The notes under the pieces were generated by a model, which saw only the letters and a list, made by a program, of their open reading frames with translations, ran no database searches and was not told where the DNA came from. From an archaeon UBA583 (GTDB lineage: Archaea > Nanobdellota > Nanobdellia > Woesearchaeales > UBA583): a stretch of DNA of 64,000 nt. The position numbers were made by a program, and so were the translations under genes. Below are positions 1-13,061 of the stretch, piece by piece (position 1 is the stretch's first letter; each line of letters opens with the position of its first letter). Where the stretch lies: contig DAXK01000025.1 of NCBI GenBank assembly GCA_002506365.1, positions 34,692-98,691 of the forward strand. Reading direction: 5' to 3'.

Positions 1-2679
1 ATTTAAACTCCAGATAATATTTTCATTGACATCATCACGATTTTTCATAGACATATGATTTGTATATCCGTTTTCATAACCAAATATAGCTCTATTTTCA
101 ATATGGGATAATGAATCATATAAATCTAAACCATCTTGATAGTTTAAAATTCTATCATTTGGGAAACCATTATATAATCTAATTTTATTAACTTCCACAT
201 TTGAAAAATCTATCATAGTATTTGGATTTGTTGCTAAATTATTATAAAAATTCATTAAGTTTAATGAAATTTTATCATGTCCAAAACCCAAAAATATTTT
301 TACCCAACCTGAGCCACCTAAACCTAGAATATTCGCATAATCACTAATCTCCAAATGAGTTAAATTACGTGTATTATTAATAAAATTTATAGCGTAATCT
401 CCAGCATTTAAATTTTCAACATTATTAATATAATATGGATGTACTGGACTACTTCTTGAACCTCTAGTGAAATCAGTATCATTGTTCAAAGTACTAGGAC
501 ATGCAATCCCGAAGAACTTGTCAACAGGCAACTCCGACATATCTACACTTTCCCAAGCACCATCAATTAAAACTTTTCCAGCATTATTTTTCCCATCTTT
601 TGAATACTCATTCAAACTAGATAAAGCAGCACGGCACCCATTACTGTGTCCAACATAATTAATTTGTGGTTTTTCTGAATAATATTGAACTGCGGCAATA
701 CTCGCAGGCCAGTGTGAATTAACTAAATCTCCATAAGTATAATCAGGTGAAGTTTCACTCTCAATATCAGGTCCACCAGTCATCTCCATAAGCCAAACAT
801 TTTGTCCATCTTGAACTAATTCTCTCCCAAAATCTTCAAAAGTATCAATATTACTAAATAAACCTCCACTCATAACAACTGGAGATTTATTTAATTCAAA
901 AGCATCAACAAACCCTTTAGAGTAGTCAATATTTAAATTCTTTAATCTTAATTGAACTTCTTGTTCATAAGATGTGTCTGCTGAATTAGTTTTAACAGTC
1001 TTAACACTTACATCAATATTATTACCATATAAAATGTTCTTAACTTGTGAAGCTAATAATTCATCATTGTTTAAAAAATTTTGACCCAGTCTATCATTAT
1101 TTAAAAAATCTACAACTGACAATCCCAATTTATCATAATTATCAATAATATCTAACTTTGGATTATTCGCAAACATCCAATCCATTTTTTTATTAACTAA
1201 CCTTTTAACTCCAGCAACACTACCAGGAATTCCATTTGAAGCAATTAAAATTAATGAGTTTTTAAATAAAACAGAAGAGGTGTATGGTTCCGTATAATCT
1301 TCATTAATAATTTTTAAGTTTTCTGATTCCTTCATTAAATTTTTCTTAGTTATAGCATTATCACCAACAACTAAATTATAATTAGCATCAAGTCTATTTG
1401 AAACAAGATTAAAATTACTATCTAAATAATCATAAACTACTTTATTAAGTTCGGGATAATTATCTCCAAAATCCACATCAACATATAAATTTAGATTATC
1501 ATAAGTAACCGGCAGTAATAAATAATTATTATTATAATCTTTTTCAAAAACATCTCCTGTAGGATTTATTTGTACATGAAAAAATTCCCCAACTTCAAGA
1601 TTTTTAAATTCGGTAATATTGATTTCATTAATTCCAAATTTAATATTTCTACCAATATGTTTTTCATCAATAATAATTCCTTTAACATTTTGTCTTTTAA
1701 TATTAAAAAATATATTTTCACCAATATTTTCTGAATTAACTTCAAACTTAAAAATATTATTTTCAGTATACACATTATTTGAGTCTATTGATAAATCCGC
1801 ATAACTTGAGATTTTAACTTTTTTCCAATTTTCTGGTGGTTCATAACCAGACTCACAAATTAATTCATTATCATTATTTACTACACAAAGAGTATTTGGC
1901 ATTCCTAAATTAACTGATTTAATATTTTCGGCAGGAAGTGTGTGAGGAAAATTACAATCCAAATTCCCATTTGTCATAATCCCACACACATTCTGACTTC
2001 TACCAACTGAAATTGAATTTAGTTTTTTATTTGTTACATTATATTTTTGTCTAGCATTATTGGACCTATGCCAACAAAAAGCATCATCATAAACATTTAC
2101 TGTACAAAAATAACTATTTTTAGTATCAACTGATTTAACTTTTTCCCAGTTTTTTGGAATATTAAAAAAGTCACCGTTGGAATCCCAACATGTAAGTTTA
2201 TTATTTAAATCAATTACGCAAGTATCAATAACTCCAGCCACAACACTTTGAATATTTGTCTCAAATCCTTGCGGAATTATTGTACTTACTCCACCTGAAA
2301 AACACCCTAACTCATCATTGAGATTAACAATACAAAACAAATAATGACCTACACTCACAGATTTAACATTCTTTTTCCAATAATCAGGAATATCAAAAGA
2401 TAATCTCCCATTCCCACCCCTAGGTCCAATATCATCACAATATAAAGAATTATCGTTTTTAACTACACAAGCAAAACCGTCCCAAACTGAAACTTCTTTA
2501 ACATTAGAATTAAATCCAGGTGGAAATTGTTCTAAAGAAGAACTTCCAGCCCAACACCCAAGTTCATCATTTTGGTTAATTGAACAAACAATTTGAATCC
2601 CTGACGAAGATTCACCAGATGAACCAGAAGCATTACCAACACCAAAAAACATTACAAAAAATACAAAAATGAAACTCAT
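1..2679 (-). CDS. Secreted multidomain protein, C-terminus cut by the window edge: signal peptide, seven Cys-paired RCC1-like propeller blades, a middle region, and a lipase-type alpha/beta hydrolase
   Basis: Absent from the ORF track because no stop lies inside the window. My reverse translation from the ATG at 2679-2677 stays open to base 1 (893 codons). It begins MSFIFVFFVMFFGVGNASG. It has seven ~50-aa units such as VKSVSVGHYLFCIVNLNDELGC. It then shows VGHSNGC (GxSxG elbow, about 636-650), followed by NDRIL and NHMSM as candidate Asp and His. Confidence 0.7.
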   Translation of the reverse strand, partial: MSFIFVFFVMFFGVGNASGSSGESSSGIQIVCSINQNDELGCWAGSSSLEQFPPGFNSNVKEVSVWDGFACVVKNDNSLYCDDIGPRGGNGRLSFDIPDYWKKNVKSVSVGHYLFCIVNLNDELGCFSGGVSTIIPQGFETNIQSVVAGVIDTCVIDLNNKLTCWDSNGDFFNIPKNWEKVKSVDTKNSYFCTVNVYDDAFCWHRSNNARQKYNVTNKKLNSISVGRSQNVCGIMTNGNLDCNFPHTLPAENIKSVNLGMPNTLCVVNNDNELICESGYEPPENWKKVKISSYADLSIDSNNVYTENNIFKFEVNSENIGENIFFNIKRQNVKGIIIDEKHIGRNIKFGINEINITEFKNLEVGEFFHVQINPTGDVFEKDYNNNYLLLPVTYDNLNLYVDVDFGDNYPELNKVVYDYLDSNFNLVSNRLDANYNLVVGDNAITKKNLMKESENLKIINEDYTEPYTSSVLFKNSLILIASNGIPGSVAGVKRLVNKKMDWMFANNPKLDIIDNYDKLGLSVVDFLNNDRLGQNFLNNDELLASQVKNILYGNNIDVSVKTVKTNSADTSYEQEVQLRLKNLNIDYSKGFVDAFELNKSPVVMSGGLFSNIDTFEDFGRELVQDGQNVWLMEMTGGPDIESETSPDYTYGDLVNSHWPASIAAVQYYSEKPQINYVGHSNGCRAALSSLNEYSKDGKNNAGKVLIDGAWESVDMSELPVDKFFGIACPSTLNNDTDFTRGSRSSPVHPYYINNVENLNAGDYAINFINNTRNLTHLEISDYANILGLGGSGWVKIFLGFGHDKISLNLMNFYNNLATNPNTMIDFSNVEVNKIRLYNGFPNDRILNYQDGLDLYDSLSHIENRAIFGYENGYTNHMSMKNRDDVNENIIWSLN

Positions 2680-2905
2680 TCTTTTAATTAAATTTAAATT
2701 TAATCCTTTTAACATAACACCAACACTCCAAAAAACTTTTATAAATAATTGTATAAATTAACAAATTAAATCAAAATAGGAGTTTATAAAACAATTTAAT
2801 AAACAAAACATTTGAAAATCAAAGTAAATTAAATTAAACAACTCCAATCATAATTTAACAATTACAATTCAAATTTATAAATAAAATAATTATTAAATAT
2901 ATTAA

Positions 2906-5900
2906 ATGGATTTAAAAAAATCTCTCAAAATAATATTTATGCTAACTTTATTTTTTCAAGTAAGTTACGCATTTGATTTAGATTCATTAATTAACTCTTA
3001 CGATTATACTTTTGAAAACGGAGTGGTTAATGTAGTACAAACGCAAGATAGTTTAATTGATACAAATCAAAATAACCTAACAGATAAATTAGAATTTAAT
3101 ATTGAAACAAATATATTTAATTCTAATTTAACAAATTACACAATAAGTGTGATATTAGATAATAAAAATTATATCTCCGAATATGTGAATTTAGAATCGA
3201 CTTTTTCAAAGATTCAAATTCCAACATATTTATTAAATGAAAATCAATATAATTATACAATTGAAATTAAAAATCAATTTAATTCAGTTGTATTTAGAAT
3301 GGATAATTATCAAACACAAATTTTAGATAATTACGAAACAGGATTTAATTTATATTCAACAATAGACAAATTAAATTTAGAAAATGAAATTCAATTCGAC
3401 TTAGAGTTTTCACAAATTCCAGAATTTGAAAATAAACAAGTTACTTTATTTTTAGAATACAATAACCAAACTTTAATTTATTCAAAAGAAGTTTTATTTG
3501 AAAATCCAAATCAATTAATTTCATTTAATATTCCAAAAGAAAATATTTTCCAAACAAAACACACAGGGAAATTTAAGTTAAAATCAATACTAGTAGATAA
3601 TAAAAGAATTTATTTAGATAATTATACAACAGATAGTTATTCATACATTGAATTTACAAATAAAAGTTTTATCACATCACAAGATTACTCTTTAGAAGAT
3701 TTAGATAATAATTCTTTATATGAAAAACTAAATATTAATTTTAACTTAAACATTGTTGAACAATCAAATTATGAAATAACATTTTCATTATTTGACTCAA
3801 ACAATAATTTTGTAAATACTTATTCAATTCAAAATGAATTAACAAATACAAATAATATTTTAACTCACTCATTTGACGGTGAAGAATTTTACAGAACTAA
3901 AATTAATGGACCATACACAATTAAAAATATTTATTTAAAACAAATAAATCAAAATTTAAATACTTCAGAAGTTATTGATGTTTCAAAAAATGAAATTACA
4001 ACTGAGCAAATTTCATACTTACAATTTGAAAAACCAACATTACCTGAATTAAATACTAAATTAATTACAACATTTGATGAATTAACAAATCAAACACAAT
4101 TAATTGTAATTGTAAATAACAATGGAACTTTCCCAGCATTTAATTTTAATTTAGAATTATTTAACTCAAAAGAATTTAGTTTCTCAGATAATATAATGTT
4201 TTTAAATACTGGTGAATCCATTAATTATTCATTTATATTTAACAATACAAATGGGTCTGAATTATATACATCATTAATTGATTCAAATAACTTTGTTGAT
4301 GAACTAAATGAAGAAAACAATCAAAACCAAATTAAAGGAATTGAACAAATTATTGACCAATCAGTTTGTGGACTAGAAAAATTACCAAACAAATTGATTT
4401 TTATAGATAGTAATTGTAATCCAATTATAAACGCTAGAGTAAATCTTCTAAAAGAAACTGGAACATATATTAAATATCTAAGAACAGACTCAAACGGAAT
4501 TGTTGACTTTTCAAATGATATATCACTAAATGGAAATAAATTCCAAATTGACCACAATGGAGCTAAATTTACAACAGAAATAAATAGTTTATTCAATGGT
4601 TCAATAATCCAATCTAAAGCATATTCATTAAAAGTTCTAGATAACAATAATGAACCAATTAAAAATGCGAGAATTAATCTCCTAAAAGAAACTGGGACAT
4701 ACATTAAATATCTAAGAACAAATGAAAATGGAACAGTTACTTTCCAAGTTGTACCAAACGCAAATATGAAGTTCCAAATTGATTACAACGGAGCCAAATA
4801 TTCAATGCCAGTAAACAACGATAATCAAATTAAAATTAATACAAAAGGATATTCACTAAAAGTTCTAGATAACAATAATGGACCAATTTCAAATGCAAGA
4901 GTAAATCTCCTAAAGGAATCAGGAACATATATTAAATATCTAAGAACAGATTCAAACGGAATTGTAACTTTCCAAAATGTACCAAATGCAAAACAACAAT
5001 TTCAAGTTGATTATAACGGAGCTAAATATTCAATGTATGTAAACAATGACACTCAAATTACAATTAATACTAAAGCATACTCTCTAAAAGTTTTAGATAA
5101 TAATAATGAACCAATTAATAATGTAAGAGTAAATCTCCTAAAAGAATCAGGAACATACATTAAATATCTAAGAACAGATTCAAACGGAATTGTAACTTTC
5201 CAAAATGTACCAAATGCAAAACAACAATTTCAAATTGATTACAACGGAGCTAAATATTCGATGTATGTAAACAATGACACTCAAATTACAATTAATACTA
5301 AAGCATACTCCCTAAAAGTTTTAGATAACAATAACAAACCAATTTCAAATGCGAGAGTAAATCTCCTAAAAGAAGCTGGAACATATATTAAATATTTAAG
5401 AACAGACACAAATGGAATTGTCACGTTTCAAAATGTGCCTAATGCAAAACAAAAATTCCAAATTGACCACAACGGAGCTAAATATTCAATACCAGTAAAT
5501 AATGACACTCAAATTACATTAAACACATTAGGATATTCATTAAAAGTTTTAGATAACAATAATGAACCAATTAACAATGTAAGAGTAAACTTACTAAAAG
5601 AATCTGGAACTTACATCAAATATTTAAGAACAGATTCAAATGGAGTTGTAACTTTCCAAAATGTACCAAATGCAAAACAACAATTTCAAATTGACCATAA
5701 TGGAGCAAAATATTCAATACCTGTAAATAACAATTCACAAATCATTATGAATACAAAGGGTTATTCATTAAAAGTTTTAGATAACAATAATGAACCAATT
5801 AATAATGTAAGAGTGAATTTACTAAAAGAGTCTGGGACTTACATCAAATATTTAAGAACAGATTCAAATGGAGTTGTAATTTTCCAAAATGTACCAAATG

Positions 5901-6484
5901 CAAAACAACAATTTCAAATTGACCACAATGGAGCAAAATATTCAATGCCAGTAAATAATGATACACAAATCACAATAAATACAAAAGCATATAGTTTGAA
6001 CCTAATTAATAGTCAAAACCTACCAATTAATAATGCTAGAGTAAATTTATTAAAATCATCAGGAACATACATCAAATACAAAAAAACAAATACAAATGGA
6101 ACAGTAATATTCCAAGTGGTACCAAATGCTAATCACAAATTCCAATTAGATTATAATGGAGATAAATATACTAGCCAATCAGTCTCAAACACAGAACCAA
6201 TTAGTGTTCAAACTTTTTCATTCGGAGGATTATTTGTTGATAGTTCATGTACTCCAACTGAAAATGTAAGATTTAATTTATTAAAAGAATCTGGAACATA
6301 TGTAAAAAATTTAAAAACTAATGGTTTAGGGGAAGGATCTTTTGAAGTTGTTCCAAATGCAAATATGAAAATTCAAGTTGACCATAATAGTCTTAAAGAA
6401 ACAACACAAGTATATTCAATTAATCAAAATACAAATTTAAATATTCAAACTTCACACAATTTAGGATGTTATAATAATTCTTAA
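2906..6484 (+). CDS. Secreted 1192-aa adhesin-like protein: signal peptide, CARDB-like segment, nine tandem carboxypeptidase-regulatory-like (prealbumin-fold) repeats
   Basis: ORF track. N-terminal hydrophobic signal IIFMLTLFFQVSYA. CARDB-like segment VNNNGTFPAFNFNLELFNS...DELNEENN. Repeat consensus YSLKVLDNNNEPINNVRVNLLKESGTYIKYLRTDSNGIVTFQNVPNAKQQFQIDYNGAKY. Confidence 0.85.
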   Translation: MDLKKSLKIIFMLTLFFQVSYAFDLDSLINSYDYTFENGVVNVVQTQDSLIDTNQNNLTDKLEFNIETNIFNSNLTNYTISVILDNKNYISEYVNLESTFSKIQIPTYLLNENQYNYTIEIKNQFNSVVFRMDNYQTQILDNYETGFNLYSTIDKLNLENEIQFDLEFSQIPEFENKQVTLFLEYNNQTLIYSKEVLFENPNQLISFNIPKENIFQTKHTGKFKLKSILVDNKRIYLDNYTTDSYSYIEFTNKSFITSQDYSLEDLDNNSLYEKLNINFNLNIVEQSNYEITFSLFDSNNNFVNTYSIQNELTNTNNILTHSFDGEEFYRTKINGPYTIKNIYLKQINQNLNTSEVIDVSKNEITTEQISYLQFEKPTLPELNTKLITTFDELTNQTQLIVIVNNNGTFPAFNFNLELFNSKEFSFSDNIMFLNTGESINYSFIFNNTNGSELYTSLIDSNNFVDELNEENNQNQIKGIEQIIDQSVCGLEKLPNKLIFIDSNCNPIINARVNLLKETGTYIKYLRTDSNGIVDFSNDISLNGNKFQIDHNGAKFTTEINSLFNGSIIQSKAYSLKVLDNNNEPIKNARINLLKETGTYIKYLRTNENGTVTFQVVPNANMKFQIDYNGAKYSMPVNNDNQIKINTKGYSLKVLDNNNGPISNARVNLLKESGTYIKYLRTDSNGIVTFQNVPNAKQQFQVDYNGAKYSMYVNNDTQITINTKAYSLKVLDNNNEPINNVRVNLLKESGTYIKYLRTDSNGIVTFQNVPNAKQQFQIDYNGAKYSMYVNNDTQITINTKAYSLKVLDNNNKPISNARVNLLKEAGTYIKYLRTDTNGIVTFQNVPNAKQKFQIDHNGAKYSIPVNNDTQITLNTLGYSLKVLDNNNEPINNVRVNLLKESGTYIKYLRTDSNGVVTFQNVPNAKQQFQIDHNGAKYSIPVNNNSQIIMNTKGYSLKVLDNNNEPINNVRVNLLKESGTYIKYLRTDSNGVVIFQNVPNAKQQFQIDHNGAKYSMPVNNDTQITINTKAYSLNLINSQNLPINNARVNLLKSSGTYIKYKKTNTNGTVIFQVVPNANHKFQLDYNGDKYTSQSVSNTEPISVQTFSFGGLFVDSSCTPTENVRFNLLKESGTYVKNLKTNGLGEGSFEVVPNANMKIQVDHNSLKETTQVYSINQNTNLNIQTSHNLGCYNNS
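4394..6481 (+). repeat. Nine in-frame tandem repeats of about 228 bp (76 aa) inside the 1192-aa gene
   Basis: I verified unit starts at 4622, 4850, 5078, 5306 and 5990, an exact 228-bp period. Units 3/4 and 6/7 are almost identical at nucleotide level over more than 100 nt. The first and last two units are diverged. Confidence 0.95.
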
Positions 6485-9578: not shown

Positions 9579-10622
9579 TTAAGCTAATCCTTCATAATAC
9601 CCTTGTAAATCCAAATCATAATTATTTTGTGCATACTTTGGACCATTATACTTTTTAGCAATTTGTTGATAATTTTTATTTTTCATATCATTAATAATTC
9701 CATTTTCTTCCAAAAACTTAAAAAAATAATTAATCATAGCATTTGAATCTTTAACTTTAGATAACAATAAATCAGCATCATCACTATTTTCATATCTAAC
9801 AATATTAGACCCTAACATTTGTGAAAAACCAAAACTTGAACTCTTAAAAGCAACAATATCATTAGCATCAAAAGCTTCTACAAAAGCATCATAATTTGTT
9901 TCCTTAGAAACTCTACTAAATGATTCTCCATTTTTTAAAGTGCAATCCACATCATCAAAACCTCTATTTTCTTCATTAAATTTATGACATTCAAATCTAA
10001 CTGATTTTTCAAAAGTTCTCCTATATCCATCCTCTTTAATAATTATGGCATAAATTAAATTCACATCAACATTATTTTTACTAGCATAAGTTTCAAATTG
10101 ATTTTTATTCAAATCATAAAAAATACTAGATTTAAACTTTTCAATTTTAGTAAGCATACTCCCCGTTAACTCAACAACATTAGTTTCAGAATTTAAAACA
10201 GCTCCATCTGAAATTGAATCAAAATCCCAAATATTATCATTATCAACCCCACTTAAAGCTTTTTCAATTTGAGTAAATAAAACACCACAATTTAATTTTT
10301 CATAATCCTTATGATTTTTATCATTACATTTAGTATAATACGAATTTAAAGAATTCCAAGTTGCAGTTTCCTGTTCATTACAACTCTCCAAAGTATCATC
10401 ATTACAAACTTTAACATTACAATTTGACTTTGAAATTTCACATTTTTCAATAATACTCTTTAACTTAAAATCAGAAATACCACCCTCCGCAGTATCAGAA
10501 ACTTCTGAAAACTGAGAAATAACTAACAAAACAACAATTAAAAGTAAAAAAAAACCAACTAACTTTGAAATAGATAACTCTACTCCTTTTTTATTAAAAG
10601 AAAAAATATTTTGAATAGACAT
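9579..10622 (-). CDS. Membrane-anchored protein with a C-terminal DUF3380-type N-acetylmuramidase-like domain
   Basis: N-terminal anchor NKKGVELSISKLVGFFLLLIVVLLVISQF. The C-terminus SSFGFSQMLG...YQQIAKKYNGPKYAQNNYDLDLQGYY resembles the SWGxFQIMG...YNGPxYxxNxYDxKL signature of phage/bacterial DUF3380 muramidases. Confidence 0.6.
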   Translation of the reverse strand: MSIQNIFSFNKKGVELSISKLVGFFLLLIVVLLVISQFSEVSDTAEGGISDFKLKSIIEKCEISKSNCNVKVCNDDTLESCNEQETATWNSLNSYYTKCNDKNHKDYEKLNCGVLFTQIEKALSGVDNDNIWDFDSISDGAVLNSETNVVELTGSMLTKIEKFKSSIFYDLNKNQFETYASKNNVDVNLIYAIIIKEDGYRRTFEKSVRFECHKFNEENRGFDDVDCTLKNGESFSRVSKETNYDAFVEAFDANDIVAFKSSSFGFSQMLGSNIVRYENSDDADLLLSKVKDSNAMINYFFKFLEENGIINDMKNKNYQQIAKKYNGPKYAQNNYDLDLQGYYEGLA

Positions 10623-10627
10623 TTTAT

Positions 10628-12106
10628 CTATCCCTTAATAACTGGAAAACTTTGGTAATACTTTCTAGTTTTACCATTATTTTTCACTTCAATCTCTAAA
10701 TCTGGTAATCTTACATCACCTAAAATACCTCTTTTATTAACTAAATTAAAACCTAATAATCTTGTATCTCCTCTTTCAAATCTAGTAAAATCCCAAACTA
10801 ATTTATACTGAGTATCACCCTTTAAAACATGTTTAGGTTCAGTTAAAGAAAAAGATTCATCCTTTACTTGTAAATAAGCAGGCATTCTGAAAATAATTTT
10901 TAATTTATCAATTTCATGTTCCTTAATATTCTCAAAACCAATTCTAACCTTAAACCCTTTAATTCCCTCATGAGATACTCTCTCAACTTCAAATAACTGA
11001 TTTTTAACAGCTAAAGGATTTGAATTCTTTCTAACATAAATATAACTTAAAATAATTCCAATTACAACAACTACAATAAATAAAGCTAAATAATTAAAAG
11101 AATAAGTAAAAGTTTTAGTTTGCCCTTTTTCTAAATTAACTTCAAAACCTACTCCATTTTCAGTTGAGAAATATTTTTCAGCATCAGTCCCAAATAATAA
11201 ACTTCTAAAAAATCCAAACTCTAATTCATCTTTATACGTATCAACCTCATTTCCTAAATTAGTAACTGAAATTTCAACTCTATCAGAAAATAAACCAGTC
11301 CCCCTATTTGATTTAACATCAATATTTTTATAAGAAGCAACTTTTAAATCAGAAACTGAATACCACTCTTGAGCAGATTCCCCTCCATCTTTTAAAACTC
11401 TAACAGTAACTTTAGCAAGATAATCACCTGGATTTAAAGAAGATGGAACATCTAACTGATAAATTTTATAACTAACATCTGATGTGAAAACATCTTCAAA
11501 AGTATCAAATTTATAATCTCCTAAACTAACAGAAACTTCTACATTTTGATCCTTAACAACAGCCTCAGAATTTACTGTAAACTTTAAAGCATTAACTGGA
11601 GACACATCAGTTTTTTGAATTTTAGTTGAAAACTTTAAATTATCCTTAGTTGGTTTAATATTAATACTATAAGTTAAAGAAACATCATCAGCTCCAATAA
11701 TTGTTACAGGAAACTCAAAAAAACCTGAATAATCTTCATTATTTTGAGAAATTTTAATTAAATTTGGACTAACTACATTTGGCGTATAATCAAAAGCTGA
11801 ATTTGCTTTTAATTCTAACTTTAAACTAACTTTTTCCCCTGCATTTAACTTAACATTTTTTTCACTTAAAGAAATATCCCATCCACTAATAGATGCAACA
11901 TTAAAATCAATATTTTGAACTTCATTTAAATTATTTTTAACTGTAAAAAAAAACTCACTCTCAATATGATTATTATAAACCTCGGAACTTAAAGTATTTA
12001 CCTCAACCTCAAATGCTCCATTTTCATTATAAACGTTATTTCCAAAAATAGAAACAAAAGAAAATAGAAATAAAAAAATAAAATTTAAACTTTTAAAATG
12101 TGTCAT
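10628..12106 (-). CDS. Type-I membrane protein: signal peptide, beta-rich CARDB-like ectodomain, one TM helix, about 125-aa cytoplasmic domain
   Basis: The ORF track extends to 12166, but that extension overlaps the TFB 3' end. The internal start MTHFKSLNFIFLFLFSFVSIFG gives a clean signal peptide. TM helix LALFIVVVVIGIILSYIYV. Function unknown. Confidence 0.6.
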   Translation of the reverse strand: MTHFKSLNFIFLFLFSFVSIFGNNVYNENGAFEVEVNTLSSEVYNNHIESEFFFTVKNNLNEVQNIDFNVASISGWDISLSEKNVKLNAGEKVSLKLELKANSAFDYTPNVVSPNLIKISQNNEDYSGFFEFPVTIIGADDVSLTYSINIKPTKDNLKFSTKIQKTDVSPVNALKFTVNSEAVVKDQNVEVSVSLGDYKFDTFEDVFTSDVSYKIYQLDVPSSLNPGDYLAKVTVRVLKDGGESAQEWYSVSDLKVASYKNIDVKSNRGTGLFSDRVEISVTNLGNEVDTYKDELEFGFFRSLLFGTDAEKYFSTENGVGFEVNLEKGQTKTFTYSFNYLALFIVVVVIGIILSYIYVRKNSNPLAVKNQLFEVERVSHEGIKGFKVRIGFENIKEHEIDKLKIIFRMPAYLQVKDESFSLTEPKHVLKGDTQYKLVWDFTRFERGDTRLLGFNLVNKRGILGDVRLPDLEIEVKNNGKTRKYYQSFPVIKG

Positions 12107-13061
12107 CTTTTCCATCATCCTCTTTAGATTTAGATTTAGCCTTGATTTTTTTAATTTCATCCTCAAGATCTAACTTTTGAATAATTTCCTTATATCTATT
12201 TCTAATTGTAACCTCAGTCACACCAGAAACATCTGAAATATCTCTTTGAGTTCTTCTCTCACCCTCTAATAAACCTGCAATATATAATGCTGCTGCAGCA
12301 ATTCCAATTGGACCTCTACCAGAAGTTAACTCTAAAGATAATGCTTGTGATAAAATTTCAACTGCTCTTGACTGTGTTTCAGGTCCATATTTTAAAACAC
12401 TTGCAAATCTTGAAATATAATCAACTGGATTTGATGGTAAAATTTTAATTCTTAATTCTCTTGTAATATATCTATAAGATCTTCCAATTTCCTTTTTATC
12501 AATTCCTGAAGCTTCAGCAATCTCATCTAAAGTTCTAGGAATATTTTGTCTTCTACAAGCAGCATACACAACTCCTGCAACAACACTCTCAATTGATCTT
12601 CCACGAACTAAATTCTTTTGAACAGCTTCAGTATAAATCTTTCCAGCCTCTTCTTCAATTGATGTTGGTAAATTCAAAAATGAAGATAAACGACGAAGTT
12701 CTCCTAAAGCAATCTTTAGGTTCTTCTCCATAACTGTAGACAATCTTTTTTGCCATCTCTTTAATCTTTGAAGTTTATATCTTTGTTTCTTATCTAAAGA
12801 AAAAGCATCACTCTCAGACCCAATAGAAGTTCCCATACCCATATCATACTTTGTATATGATGTTGGAGCACCAGATCTTCTCATCTCAGAATCATCTCCC
12901 TCTTCAAAGTCTCTCCATTCCTTTCCTAAAGAAATATTTTTTGCATCAATTAATAAACCACAACTTCTACAAATCATTTCCCCTCTATCTTTATCATTAT
13001 AAAGATTAGTTCCACCACACTCTGGGCATTTTTTTAAATTATCTGATCCTACCATTATCAA
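12093..13061 (-). CDS. tfb: Transcription initiation factor B (TFB/TFIIB)
   Basis: N-terminal zinc ribbon CPECGG...CRSCG followed by two cyclin-fold repeats (AACRRQNIPRTLDEIA, AAALYIAG). The ORF-track start is TTG. An ATG lies two codons downstream. Confidence 0.95.
   Translation of the reverse strand: MIMVGSDNLKKCPECGGTNLYNDKDRGEMICRSCGLLIDAKNISLGKEWRDFEEGDDSEMRRSGAPTSYTKYDMGMGTSIGSESDAFSLDKKQRYKLQRLKRWQKRLSTVMEKNLKIALGELRRLSSFLNLPTSIEEEAGKIYTEAVQKNLVRGRSIESVVAGVVYAACRRQNIPRTLDEIAEASGIDKKEIGRSYRYITRELRIKILPSNPVDYISRFASVLKYGPETQSRAVEILSQALSLELTSGRGPIGIAAAALYIAGLLEGERRTQRDISDVSGVTEVTIRNRYKEIIQKLDLEDEIKKIKAKSKSKEDDGKDDTF

What the first reader, a model, noticed from the sequence alone, without database searches (positions are those of the whole stretch)
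1..2679. Edge-truncated 893-codon ORF missing from the ORF track: Cys-paired RCC1-like propeller fused to a lipase-type hydrolase
The track shows only three tiny ORFs in the first 2.7 kb. The minus strand, however, reads open from the ATG at 2679 to base 1. The product has a signal peptide and seven ~50-aa blades, each with two conserved Cys (V-K-S-V-S-x-G...C...N-x-L-x-C). A C-terminal alpha/beta hydrolase carries GHSNG plus candidate Asp (NDRIL) and His (NHMSM). In a reduced archaeon, a secreted propeller-lipase fusion is a plausible tool for attacking or harvesting host membrane lipids. I do not recognise this architecture as a described family.
Basis: partly seen in the sequence, partly recalled or inferred. 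Interest (0 to 1): 0.6.

Follow-up and report, generated by a model that had tools for sequence, protein, structure and literature searches.

The report
Propeller-headed secreted lipase-like archaeal hydrolase
A tiny, host-dependent (DPANN/Woesearchaeota) archaeon encodes a complete 905-residue secreted protein that joins a seven-bladed binding propeller to a lipase-like enzyme, and that enzyme module is an unnamed cassette found across its relatives behind interchangeable front ends.

Summary
The ORF is real and far beyond chance. It is complete, not truncated: the TAA stop lies in the 3 nt left of window base 1, and the contig runs on for 34.7 kb. The likely start is the ATG at 2715 (905 aa), not 2679.

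Architecture:
- signal peptide
- seven-bladed RCC1_2/BLIP-II-type propeller, blades 33-45 aa, each with a C-x9-C pair
- CARDB-like Ig domain
- unassigned alpha/beta domain
- capped alpha/beta-hydrolase with Ser691-Asp854-His887, conserved 60/60, 60/60 and 58/60 in homologues

Fold search and profile-sequence search both place the hydrolase nearest gastric and lysosomal acid lipases.

The Ig + middle domain + hydrolase unit is a C-terminal cassette with no specific Pfam or NCBIfam model. About 100 cluster representatives match at E<=1e-30, almost all from Woese-/Pace-/Nanoarchaeia. It is fused to subtilase, FG-GAP or beta-helix heads. An RCC1 head appears only here.

Within the genus the cassette is patchy and tandemly duplicated. 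The genome lacks three archaeal lipid-synthesis markers and carries a bacterial-wall muramidase 9.5 kb away.

Best reading: a surface-targeted carboxylic-ester (lipase-like) hydrolase used on host or prey envelopes. The fold and active site are well supported. The substrate and biological role are inferred.

The parts
2737..2745 (-). TATA-like box TTTATAAAA, about 26 nt upstream of ATG 2715
   Evidence: Located. The box and its flank are conserved in the related 624-bp contig L081, while the neighbouring intergenic DNA has diverged.
1..2715 (-). Complete 905-codon coding sequence. The stop codon TAA lies just outside the window, at L002 9998-10000.
   Evidence: Identical to database cluster P0002, 905 aa.
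2629..2715 (-). Signal peptide, residues 1-29: n-region K3/K11/R12, h-region SFIFVFFVMFFGVG, c-region GNA|SG
   Evidence: This is the only Kyte-Doolittle hydrophobic segment in the protein. AF2 predicts a helix at 7-23. The cleavage site follows the -3/-1 rule by inspection; no predictor was run.
1840..2610 (-). Seven-bladed RCC1_2/BLIP-II-type beta-propeller (residues about 36-292), one C-x9-C pair per blade
1516..1803 (-). CARDB-like Ig spacer (residues about 305-400), first part of the conserved cassette
   Evidence: It aligns to the region carrying Pfam CARDB in homologues: P0021 487-570, P0073 463-557, L005 protein 1039-1120. The profile hits PDB 2l0d 'cell surface protein' at E=4e-4. Our own sequence gets no Pfam hit, and the AF2 model here is low-confidence because the alignment did not cover it.
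1030..1491 (-). Conserved alpha/beta 'middle' domain (residues about 409-562), fold family unassigned
   Evidence: AF2 pLDDT is mostly 85-95 with beta-alpha-beta topology. It is conserved in homologues, including the motif GN.IEG.(I/V)AA.K.L. No PDB or Pfam sequence match.
1..1017 (-). Capped alpha/beta-hydrolase, acid-lipase-like (residues about 567-905). The cap covers about residues 742-842 (window 190-492).
859..867 (-). Oxyanion-hole loop G617-G618-L619, equivalent to His-Gly-Leu of gastric and lysosomal lipase
   Evidence: HMMER alignment to 6v7n and 1hlg. G618 is conserved 59/60 and L/I619 58/60.
643..645 (-). Nucleophile Ser691 (AGT) in YVGHSNGCR
   Evidence: 60/60 conserved. It lies between strand 293-298 and helix 300-312 of the model, the nucleophile elbow. 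Codon checked.
154..156 (-). Catalytic acid Asp854 (NDRIL)
   Evidence: 60/60 conserved. It follows strand 452-458, which corresponds to beta7.
55..57 (-). Catalytic His887 (NHMSM)
   Evidence: 58/60 conserved. It follows strand 483-488, which corresponds to beta8.
499..636 (-). Cys694 (window 634-636) and Cys739 (window 499-501): inferred disulfide beside the active site
   Evidence: The pair is C/C in 46 of 60 homologues. When the first Cys is lost, the second is also lost in 13 of 14 cases.

Best explanation
This is a complete, Sec-exported, disulfide-stabilised surface or secreted protein of a Woesearchaeota-type DPANN archaeon. It has two functional ends. The N-terminal compact seven-bladed RCC1_2/BLIP-II-type propeller is a binding head that recognises a protein or surface ligand. 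The C-terminal cassette consists of a CARDB-like Ig spacer, a conserved alpha/beta domain, and a capped acid-lipase-like alpha/beta-hydrolase. It is an active serine carboxylic-ester hydrolase that uses Ser691-Asp854-His887 and a Gly-Gly-Leu oxyanion loop. The head brings the hydrolase to a target surface, where it cleaves ester-linked lipids or other hydrophobic esters. The most plausible target is the envelope of a bacterial host or prey, possibly alongside the nearby muramidase. Shown: the ORF, the domain folds, triad conservation, the cassette's distribution, and head swapping. Inferred: export, disulfides, catalytic activity, lipid substrate, and host-directed role.
For: The ORF is complete. 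The signal-peptide-like N-terminus is the only hydrophobic segment, and homologues also begin with signal peptides. Propeller: the repeats match RCC1_2 proteins, and the AF2 model with Foldseek matches BLIP-II, UVR8, CRINKLY4 and RCC1. Hydrolase: the AF2 model has pLDDT 89.3 and pTM 0.85. The top Foldseek hits are gastric and lysosomal acid lipases (E 1e-11), followed by about 1,000 other alpha/beta-hydrolases. The independent profile-sequence search gives 6v7n at 1.7e-8, 1hlg at 2e-7 and 1k8q at 8.5e-7, aligned from the oxyanion strand to the nucleophile elbow. The triad is conserved 60/60, 60/60 and 58/60, and Cys694/Cys739 co-vary. The cassette is always C-terminal. It is fused to S8 (11 of 29), FG-GAP (8 of 29) and NosD (6 of 29) heads. 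It was found in 76 DPANN loci. Within the genus it is patchy and tandemly duplicated, which is typical of fast-evolving interaction genes. Context: GGGPS, CarS and HMG-CoA reductase were not found in the genome. A PF11860 muramidase lies at window 9579-10622, and a divergent 1192-aa adhesin-like gene is adjacent. A published analogue exists: a CPR predator with a secreted phospholipase plus peptidoglycan hydrolases (PMC8080830).
Against: There is no biochemical evidence. The protein itself scores below the Pfam Abhydrolase_1 and RCC1_2 cut-offs. The fold-search margin of acid lipases over generic esterases, C-C hydrolases and haloperoxidases is modest, with TMt only 0.57-0.65, so lipid specificity is not established. 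If the host is an archaeon with ether lipids, an esterase cannot cut its membrane lipids. Hydrolysing lipids also does not obviously supply intact membrane lipids. The assembly is only 74% complete, so the missing lipid genes are suggestive only. No membrane anchor other than the N-terminal segment was found, so surface retention versus release is undecided.
Confidence: 0.6

Rival explanations
1. It is the same enzyme fold acting on a non-lipid substrate: a surface esterase or depolymerase for polymers (acetylated polysaccharides, polyhydroxyalkanoate, cutin-like polyesters), or an alpha/beta-fold peptidase, used to feed on environmental or host-derived polymers.
For: Foldseek hits within about 2-3 logs of the lipases include aryl esterases, macrolide esterases, a PE hydrolase, epoxide hydrolases and the proline iminopeptidase-type F1. 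The profile also touches the extracellular PHB depolymerase PhaZ7 at E about 5e-3. Sister proteins carry polymer-degrading or carbohydrate-binding heads such as S8 protease and NosD/beta-helix.
Against: The best matches by both structure and sequence are triacylglycerol and cholesteryl-ester lipases, and they share a large helical cap inserted after beta6. The PhaZ7 match is confined to about 35-50 residues around the nucleophile elbow.
Confidence: 0.22
2. The constant C-terminal cassette is mainly an envelope-attachment or display module. It inserts into or covalently acylates to a membrane or S-layer component through its hydrophobic cap and Ser nucleophile, and it presents the interchangeable N-terminal heads outward.
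For: The cassette is always at the extreme C-terminus, with 0-28 residues after it and no other anchor. The heads are swapped while the cassette stays constant. PGF-CTERM or archaeosortase-type anchors were not seen in these proteins by inspection of the sequences.
Against: A full, strictly conserved Ser-Asp-His triad with oxyanion loop is expected for a turnover enzyme. Headless copies (middle domain + hydrolase only) exist, for example L005 8708-10285 and 10663-11985, and these would have nothing to display. There is no precedent for this mechanism in this fold family.
Confidence: 0.1
3. The propeller is the functional end. Like BLIP-II, it binds and inhibits a specific host or competitor enzyme, and the hydrolase is accessory.
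For: BLIP-II is the best structural match, at TMt 0.70-0.74 and RMSD 3.6-4.3 A over about 265 columns. It has the same compact blades of about 40 residues.
Against: Sequence identity to BLIP-II is only 12-14%. The compact RCC1_2 propeller is a generic binding scaffold found in thousands of surface proteins. The part under the strictest conservation is the hydrolase active site.
Confidence: 0.05

Closest known systems
Gastric and lysosomal acid lipases (human LAL 6V7N, human gastric lipase 1HLG, dog gastric lipase 1K8Q)
   Same: They are the best hits by both structure (Foldseek E 1e-11 to 1e-10) and profile-sequence search (E 1.7e-8 to 8.5e-7). The sequence alignment covers the oxyanion strand (PVV..(H/G)G(L/I)), the D(V/I)W strand and the YVGHS(Q/N)G nucleophile elbow. 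Both have a Ser-Asp-His triad in the canonical order and a helical cap inserted after beta6.
   Different: Identity is only 12-15% and TMt 0.53-0.59. The oxyanion dipeptide is Gly-Gly instead of His-Gly. The Pfam Abhydro_lipase N-terminal segment is not detected. Here the domain is preceded by a conserved alpha/beta domain and an Ig domain and sits at the C-terminus of a multidomain archaeal exoprotein. It also has an inferred disulfide Cys694-Cys739 and conserved cap residues (His787, Ser817, Tyr824) and Arg695 of unknown role.
Cassette-bearing surface proteins of Woese-/Pace-/Nanoarchaeia, annotated only as 'S8 family serine peptidase', 'CARDB domain-containing protein' or 'hypothetical protein' (e.g. 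P0009, P0016, P0008; the CP060218.1 tandem array)
   Same: They share the same Ig + middle domain + hydrolase cassette at 30-52% identity, always C-terminal, with the same triad and Cys pair.
   Different: Their heads are subtilase, FG-GAP propeller, NosD/beta-helix or Cys-rich modules, and some copies have no head. None of the 150 best representatives, and none of the 40 related genomes, pairs the cassette with an RCC1 propeller. Most also keep a second Cys pair (TEC..CP) that this protein has lost.
BLIP-II (1JTD, 3QHY, 3QI0) and the Pfam RCC1_2 / RCC1-like-domain propellers; CRINKLY4 ectodomain (7A0J)
   Same: A seven-bladed propeller with compact blades of about 40 residues and three strands each. 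The C-x9-C pair lies on adjacent strands, as in the bacterial RCC1_2 motif 'HTCA...G.L.CWG'.
   Different: The 'CWG.N..GQ' half of the motif has degenerated to CWAG/CDD/CFSG/CWDS/CWHR/CNFP/CESG, so the Pfam model scores only 10.6 bits against a 22-bit cut-off. The whole-genome RCC1_2 scan also misses it. There is no evidence for beta-lactamase binding or GEF activity.
Secreted phospholipase plus peptidoglycan hydrolases of the CPR predator Vampirococcus lugosii (PMC8080830)
   Same: The functional scenario is the same. An ultrasmall, lipid-auxotrophic episymbiont or predator has a secreted lipid-ester hydrolase, wall hydrolases, type IV pili and large adhesins (here).
   Different: It is a different domain of life and an unrelated enzyme architecture. 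The comparison is by analogy only.

Membership tests
alpha/beta-hydrolase fold superfamily | Canonical central beta-sheet flanked by helices (fold match to solved members) | tested here: met
   The AF2 model has pLDDT 89.3. There are 1,163 PDB matches at E<=1e-3, and all of the 50 best listed are alpha/beta-hydrolases.
alpha/beta-hydrolase fold superfamily | Nucleophile elbow G-x-S-x-G after beta5, acid after beta7 and His after beta8, all conserved | tested here: met
   G-H-S691-N-G lies between strand 293-298 and helix 300-312. Asp854 follows strand 452-458 and His887 follows strand 483-488. Conservation is 60/60, 60/60 and 58/60. The 3-D geometry itself was not measurable because no coordinates were available.
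alpha/beta-hydrolase fold superfamily | Score above the Pfam Abhydrolase_1 (PF00561) gathering cut-off | tested here: not met
   This protein scores 13.9 bits against a cut-off of 25.8. Homologue P0006 reaches 26.3 bits, and P0008, P0009 and P0020 reach 23-25 bits.
Acid lipase family (gastric/lysosomal lipase) | Significant sequence-profile similarity across the catalytic core | tested here: met
   E values are 1.7e-8, 2e-7 and 8.5e-7 to 6v7n, 1hlg and 1k8q. The alignment covers only the oxyanion strand to the nucleophile elbow, about 90 profile positions.
Acid lipase family (gastric/lysosomal lipase) | Helical cap/lid domain inserted after beta6 | tested here: met
   Helices lie at fragment residues 356-437, between strands 339-345 and 452-458. 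Alignment lengths to the lipases are 393-415 columns.
Acid lipase family (gastric/lysosomal lipase) | Pfam Abhydro_lipase (PF04083) N-terminal segment; His-Gly oxyanion dipeptide | tested here: not met
   There is no PF04083 hit at E<=1. The dipeptide is Gly617-Gly618. I therefore describe the domain as acid-lipase-like and do not file it as a member.
Acid lipase family (gastric/lysosomal lipase) | Hydrolysis of triacylglycerol or cholesteryl esters | not testable with these tools
   Requires an enzyme assay.
RCC1_2 / RCC1-like-domain beta-propeller | Seven repeats forming a closed propeller | tested here: met
   Seven C-x9-C units. AF2 predicts seven three-strand blades. Foldseek matches BLIP-II (TMt 0.70-0.74), UVR8, RCC1 and HERC2.
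RCC1_2 / RCC1-like-domain beta-propeller | Homology to proteins that pass the Pfam RCC1_2 and WD40_RLD cut-offs | tested here: met
   phmmer E values are 1e-23 to 1e-37 to P0080, P0091, P0097, P0154, P0156 and others. These score 162-720 bits on PF13540. All seven repeats align in register.
RCC1_2 / RCC1-like-domain beta-propeller | Own score above the Pfam RCC1_2 cut-off (22 bits) | tested here: not met
   The score is 10.6 bits, E=0.56. The genome scan with PF13540 finds nothing in the window's own genome.
CARDB Ig-like domain | Match to PF07705 | tested here: inconclusive
   Our own sequence gets no hit. The aligned region of homologues passes or approaches the cut-off: P0016 38 bits, P0073 26.6, L005 protein 23.0. 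The profile hits 2l0d at E=4e-4. The AF2 model is of low confidence here.
Sec-type secreted protein | N-terminal n/h/c signal peptide with an A-x-A-like cleavage site | tested here: inconclusive
   The pattern is seen by inspection and hydropathy only, and no signal-peptide predictor was available. Paired Cys conservation supports an extracytoplasmic location.

The most novel reading that the evidence does not exclude
The Ig + alpha/beta domain + acid-lipase-like hydrolase unit is an undescribed, DPANN-specific 'constant' C-terminal cassette. Its strictly conserved catalytic centre would do something other than bulk lipolysis. One possibility is breaching a host membrane locally to open the cell-cell contact through which these lipid-auxotrophic archaea obtain lipids. 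Another is covalently acylating the protein to a membrane lipid as a new kind of archaeal surface-anchoring chemistry. Under either reading, the swappable heads (subtilase, FG-GAP, beta-helix, RCC1) set host or ligand specificity.
Probability: 0.12. Interest if true: 0.8.

Novelty: new variant of a known kind. Interest (0 to 1): 0.45.

Why it matters
How DPANN archaea that cannot make their own lipids attach to other cells, open them and take material from them is largely unknown. This locus gives a concrete, expressible candidate: a lipase-like enzyme with an intact, strongly conserved active site carried on a targeting propeller. It also reveals a cassette family with no specific Pfam or NCBIfam model. 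About 100 cluster representatives at 50% identity match at E<=1e-30, and the family is multi-copy, tandemly duplicated and head-swapped, which is the evolutionary signature of host-interaction genes. In this genome it sits alongside a bacterial-wall muramidase, so it would support the view that some Woesearchaeota exploit bacteria rather than archaea. Practically, the cassette deserves its own profile model, because it is currently annotated only as 'hypothetical', 'S8 peptidase' or 'CARDB protein'.

Tried and rejected
- Direct Pfam and NCBIfam scans of the protein gave only sub-threshold Abhydrolase_1 and RCC1_2 hits and no NCBIfam hit.
- Single-sequence phmmer against PDB sequences gave only noise: trefoil factor and primase at E>1.
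- The word-index search with the N-terminal 310 residues found only the protein itself.
- Conserved-partner test: the 145-aa multi-TM protein, whose ATG starts 1 nt after the stop, has no homologue in ORFs of 76 related loci and no Pfam hit. I rejected it as a conserved partner.
- Paralogue test: there is no second cassette copy in this genome.
- Orthologue test: no RCC1+cassette protein in 40 related genomes. The only close relative (P0086, 69% identity) lies on a 624-bp contig and gives no information on architecture.
- Recent horizontal transfer of the gene is not indicated. Its GC is 28.2% against 25.3% for the window, and the blades are old, with mean 19% pairwise identity.
- Model coordinates are not exposed to the Python box, so triad and disulfide geometry could not be measured.
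- Four literature searches found no description of this cassette.
- The middle domain could not be assigned to any known fold family by sequence.
Full report
OBSERVATION

The minus strand of window 1-2679 translates to 893 residues without a stop. With open ends allowed, the frame runs to an ATG at 2715, giving 905 aa. At about 25% GC roughly 8.8% of random codons are stops, so an open frame of this length has a chance probability near 1e-36 (my arithmetic; composition).

The window is positions 34692-98691 of a 119-kb contig. In the extended locus L002 the ORF is 9998..12715. The last sense codon, AAT (Asn905), is window 1-3, and the TAA stop occupies the three bases immediately to the left. 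The protein is therefore complete. 'Edge-truncated' reflects only where the window was cut.

The upstream ATG at 2715 is the better start, for three reasons:
- It adds MLKGLNLNLIKR, the positively charged n-region of a signal peptide.
- A 69%-identical relative (P0086) begins with the same residues.
- In the DNA alignment with that relative's contig, a TTTATAAA box (window 2737-2745) and the sequence from ATG 2715 onward are conserved, while nearby intergenic DNA is not. The box centre is about 26 nt from the ATG, which fits a leaderless archaeal mRNA.

ANATOMY (905-aa numbering)

Residues 1-29 form the only hydrophobic segment and end in GNA|SG.

Residues about 36-292 contain seven units, each with two Cys exactly ten apart: 44/54, 83/93, 128/138, 166/176, 204/214, 244/254 and 277/287. 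The periods are 33-45 aa.

A search of 1.84 billion cluster representatives matched this region to giant multi-repeat proteins at E 1e-23 to 1e-37. Pfam scores those proteins at 162-720 bits on RCC1_2 and on the RCC1-like domain. They carry the same C-x9-C spacing ('HTCAV..G.L.CWG'), and all seven of our repeats align with them in register.

An AF2 model built on that alignment has pLDDT mostly 80-93 across residues 40-290, with three strands per blade. Foldseek's best PDB matches are BLIP-II (TMt 0.70-0.74), then UVR8, the CRINKLY4 ectodomain, HERC1/2, RPGR and RCC1. In every blade the two Cys residue numbers sum to the value expected for directly opposed positions on the two adjacent predicted hairpin strands (strand limits). 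I therefore infer, without having measured it, seven cross-strand disulfides.

The protein's own Pfam RCC1_2 score is sub-threshold at 10.6 bits, because the 'WG.N..GQ' half of the motif has decayed.

Residues about 305-905 are a conserved unit. The representative search gave 1,597 hits at E<=1e-3 and 103 at E<=1e-30. Most of these cover query residues from about 290-480 to about 890.

- The first part (about 305-400) aligns to the segment that Pfam calls CARDB in homologues. A profile of the family also hits the CARDB-like PDB entry 2l0d at E=4e-4.
- The second part (about 409-562) is a beta-alpha-beta domain that is confidently modelled but has no recognisable relatives.
- The third part (about 567-905) is an alpha/beta-hydrolase.

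The hydrolase evidence is as follows. The AF2 model of residues 393-905 has pLDDT 89.3 and pTM 0.85. Foldseek returns dog and human gastric lipase and human lysosomal acid lipase first (E 1e-11 to 1e-10), followed by a long list of esterases and other alpha/beta-hydrolases. Independently, an HMM of 60 homologues searched against PDB sequences finds the same three lipases at E 1.7e-8 to 8.5e-7. The alignment runs from the oxyanion strand (PVV..GG(L/I)) through D(V/I)W to YVGHS(N/Q)G.

Across 60 homologues, Ser691 and Asp854 are invariant and His887 is present in 58. They follow the strands corresponding to beta5, beta7 and beta8, and a helical cap sits between beta6 and beta7. Cys694, next to the nucleophile, and Cys739 co-vary: C/C in 46 sequences, and both lost in 13 of the 14 that lack the first. 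This supports a disulfide and an oxidising, extracytoplasmic location.

DISTRIBUTION AND EVOLUTION

The cassette is always at the extreme C-terminus, with 0-28 residues after it. Among 29 long homologues the heads are subtilase (11), FG-GAP propeller (8), NosD/beta-helix (6) and extra CARDB (4). None has an RCC1 head. The closest cassette relatives carry S8, Cys-rich or unassigned heads.

A scan of one genome per prokaryotic species returned 76 loci. All are labelled Woese-, Pace- or Nanoarchaeia/Nanoarchaeota, apart from 'uncultured Methanosarcinales' MAG labels that are probably wrong and one record labelled only 'archaeon'. One of the 'Methanosarcinales' records is a 774-kb 'chromosome'.

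Within the window's genus, 8 of 19 other species have the cassette. Arrays occur: G007 has three adjacent genes and G013 has six matches. The G007 array (CP060218.1) consists of an S8-CARDB-cassette gene followed by two headless copies.

No relative has an RCC1+cassette orthologue, and this genome has a single copy. RCC1_2 propellers do occur in other surface proteins of four congeners, so the head type was available locally for shuffling. The gene's GC content is native (28.2% against 25.3% for the window), and the blades are old, with mean 19% pairwise identity.

CONTEXT

The divergent neighbour (2906-6484) is a 1192-aa protein with repeated CarboxypepD_reg/CARDB domains. To the left are a T2SSF/TadC-type gene and two small proteins whose N-termini look pilin-like.

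GGGP synthase, CDP-archaeol synthase and HMG-CoA reductase were not found in this assembly, which is 74% complete. All three were found in the four archaeal control genomes. The gene immediately downstream encodes a 145-aa multi-TM protein and starts 1 nt after the stop. It is not conserved next to cassette genes elsewhere.

INTERPRETATION

Well supported:
- The protein is an exported modular protein.
- It has an RCC1-type binding propeller.
- It has an acid-lipase-like serine hydrolase whose catalytic apparatus is under strong purifying selection.
- That hydrolase is embedded in a DPANN-wide cassette with interchangeable heads.

Inferred:
- It is catalytically active.
- Its substrates are ester lipids.
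- It acts on host or prey envelopes.

A serine esterase cannot cut the ether lipids of an archaeal host, so the idea works for bacterial targets (consistent with the muramidase) or for non-membrane esters. Hydrolysis also destroys intact lipids rather than delivering them, so local breaching of a membrane is more plausible than harvesting.

Three rivals remain open:
- a non-lipid esterase or depolymerase (0.22)
- an anchoring or display role for the cassette (0.10)
- a BLIP-II-like inhibitor role for the head (0.05)

A published functional analogue is the CPR predator Vampirococcus, which carries a secreted phospholipase, peptidoglycan hydrolases, pili and giant adhesins (PMC8080830).

NOVELTY

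The folds are known. The RCC1-head + cassette architecture is unique among the sequences I searched. The cassette has no specific Pfam or NCBIfam model, only marginal generic Abhydrolase_1 and CARDB hits. Four literature searches found no description of it. Database names are only 'hypothetical protein', 'S8 family serine peptidase' or 'CARDB domain-containing protein'.

I rate it a new variant of a known kind, of moderate interest. Its value lies mainly in being an experimentally tractable handle on DPANN-host interaction.

Noticed in passing
L002 9559-9996 (minus strand; just left of the window) and L002 6549-9569: A 145-aa protein with several predicted transmembrane segments starts 1 nt after the hydrolase gene's TAA. 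The leucyl-tRNA synthetase gene then overlaps its end by 11 nt. A surface hydrolase, a small membrane protein and LeuRS therefore appear tightly stacked on one strand. The small protein has no Pfam hit and no homologue next to cassette genes in 76 other loci.
   Followed up: partly
L005 8708-10285 and 10663-11985 (CP060218.1, Woesearchaeota HK-STAS-Nano-1): Two 'headless' cassette copies (middle domain + hydrolase, 525 and 440 aa) sit directly downstream of a full S8-CARDB-cassette gene. The similar headless protein P0008 has no obvious signal peptide. They could be orphan or spare cassettes, mis-called starts, or decaying duplicates.
   Followed up: partly
L007, L017, L025, L028, L051 and other loci: Many MAGs labelled 'uncultured Methanosarcinales archaeon' carry this DPANN-specific cassette. 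One (OZ246410.1) is a 774-kb 'chromosome'. The taxonomic labels of these records are probably wrong.
   Followed up: no
P0012: One S8+cassette protein is annotated as coming from a Parcubacteria (CPR bacterium) bin, GW2011_GWA2_31_28. This is either mis-binning of an archaeal contig or an archaea-to-CPR transfer.
   Followed up: no
L002 259-2619 (left of the window): A T2SSF/TadC-type membrane protein (PF00482, E=7e-10) is followed by two small proteins of 190 and 172 aa. Their N-termini (KAQAAIEFLMTYGWMLLVV; KKGQASMEYMAIFGIGFLLV) look like archaeal type IV pilin class III signal peptides, but they have no Pfam hit.
   Followed up: partly
L002 4448-6441 (left of the window): Four tandem paralogous genes encode small proteins of 148-171 aa with similar N-terminal 'NL(E/D)xF/YL' segments. 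They have no Pfam match. This is a lineage-specific small-protein family of unknown function.
   Followed up: no
It is relevant because it points to bacterial targets.
   Followed up: partly
window about 748-780 (residues about 646-656, GPDIESETSPDYTY): Most cassette homologues have a second Cys pair here (GP.TEC..CP.YTY). This protein and a few relatives (P0008, P0011, P0019) have lost both Cys together, which is another sign that the cysteines act in pairs.
   Followed up: partly
L088, L089, L091 (same-genus genomes G011, G013, G014): Other surface proteins of this genus carry canonical RCC1/RCC1_2 propellers joined to Big_7 Ig domains or DUF2341. RCC1 propellers are therefore a recurrent building block of Woesearchaeal exoproteins.
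   Followed up: partly
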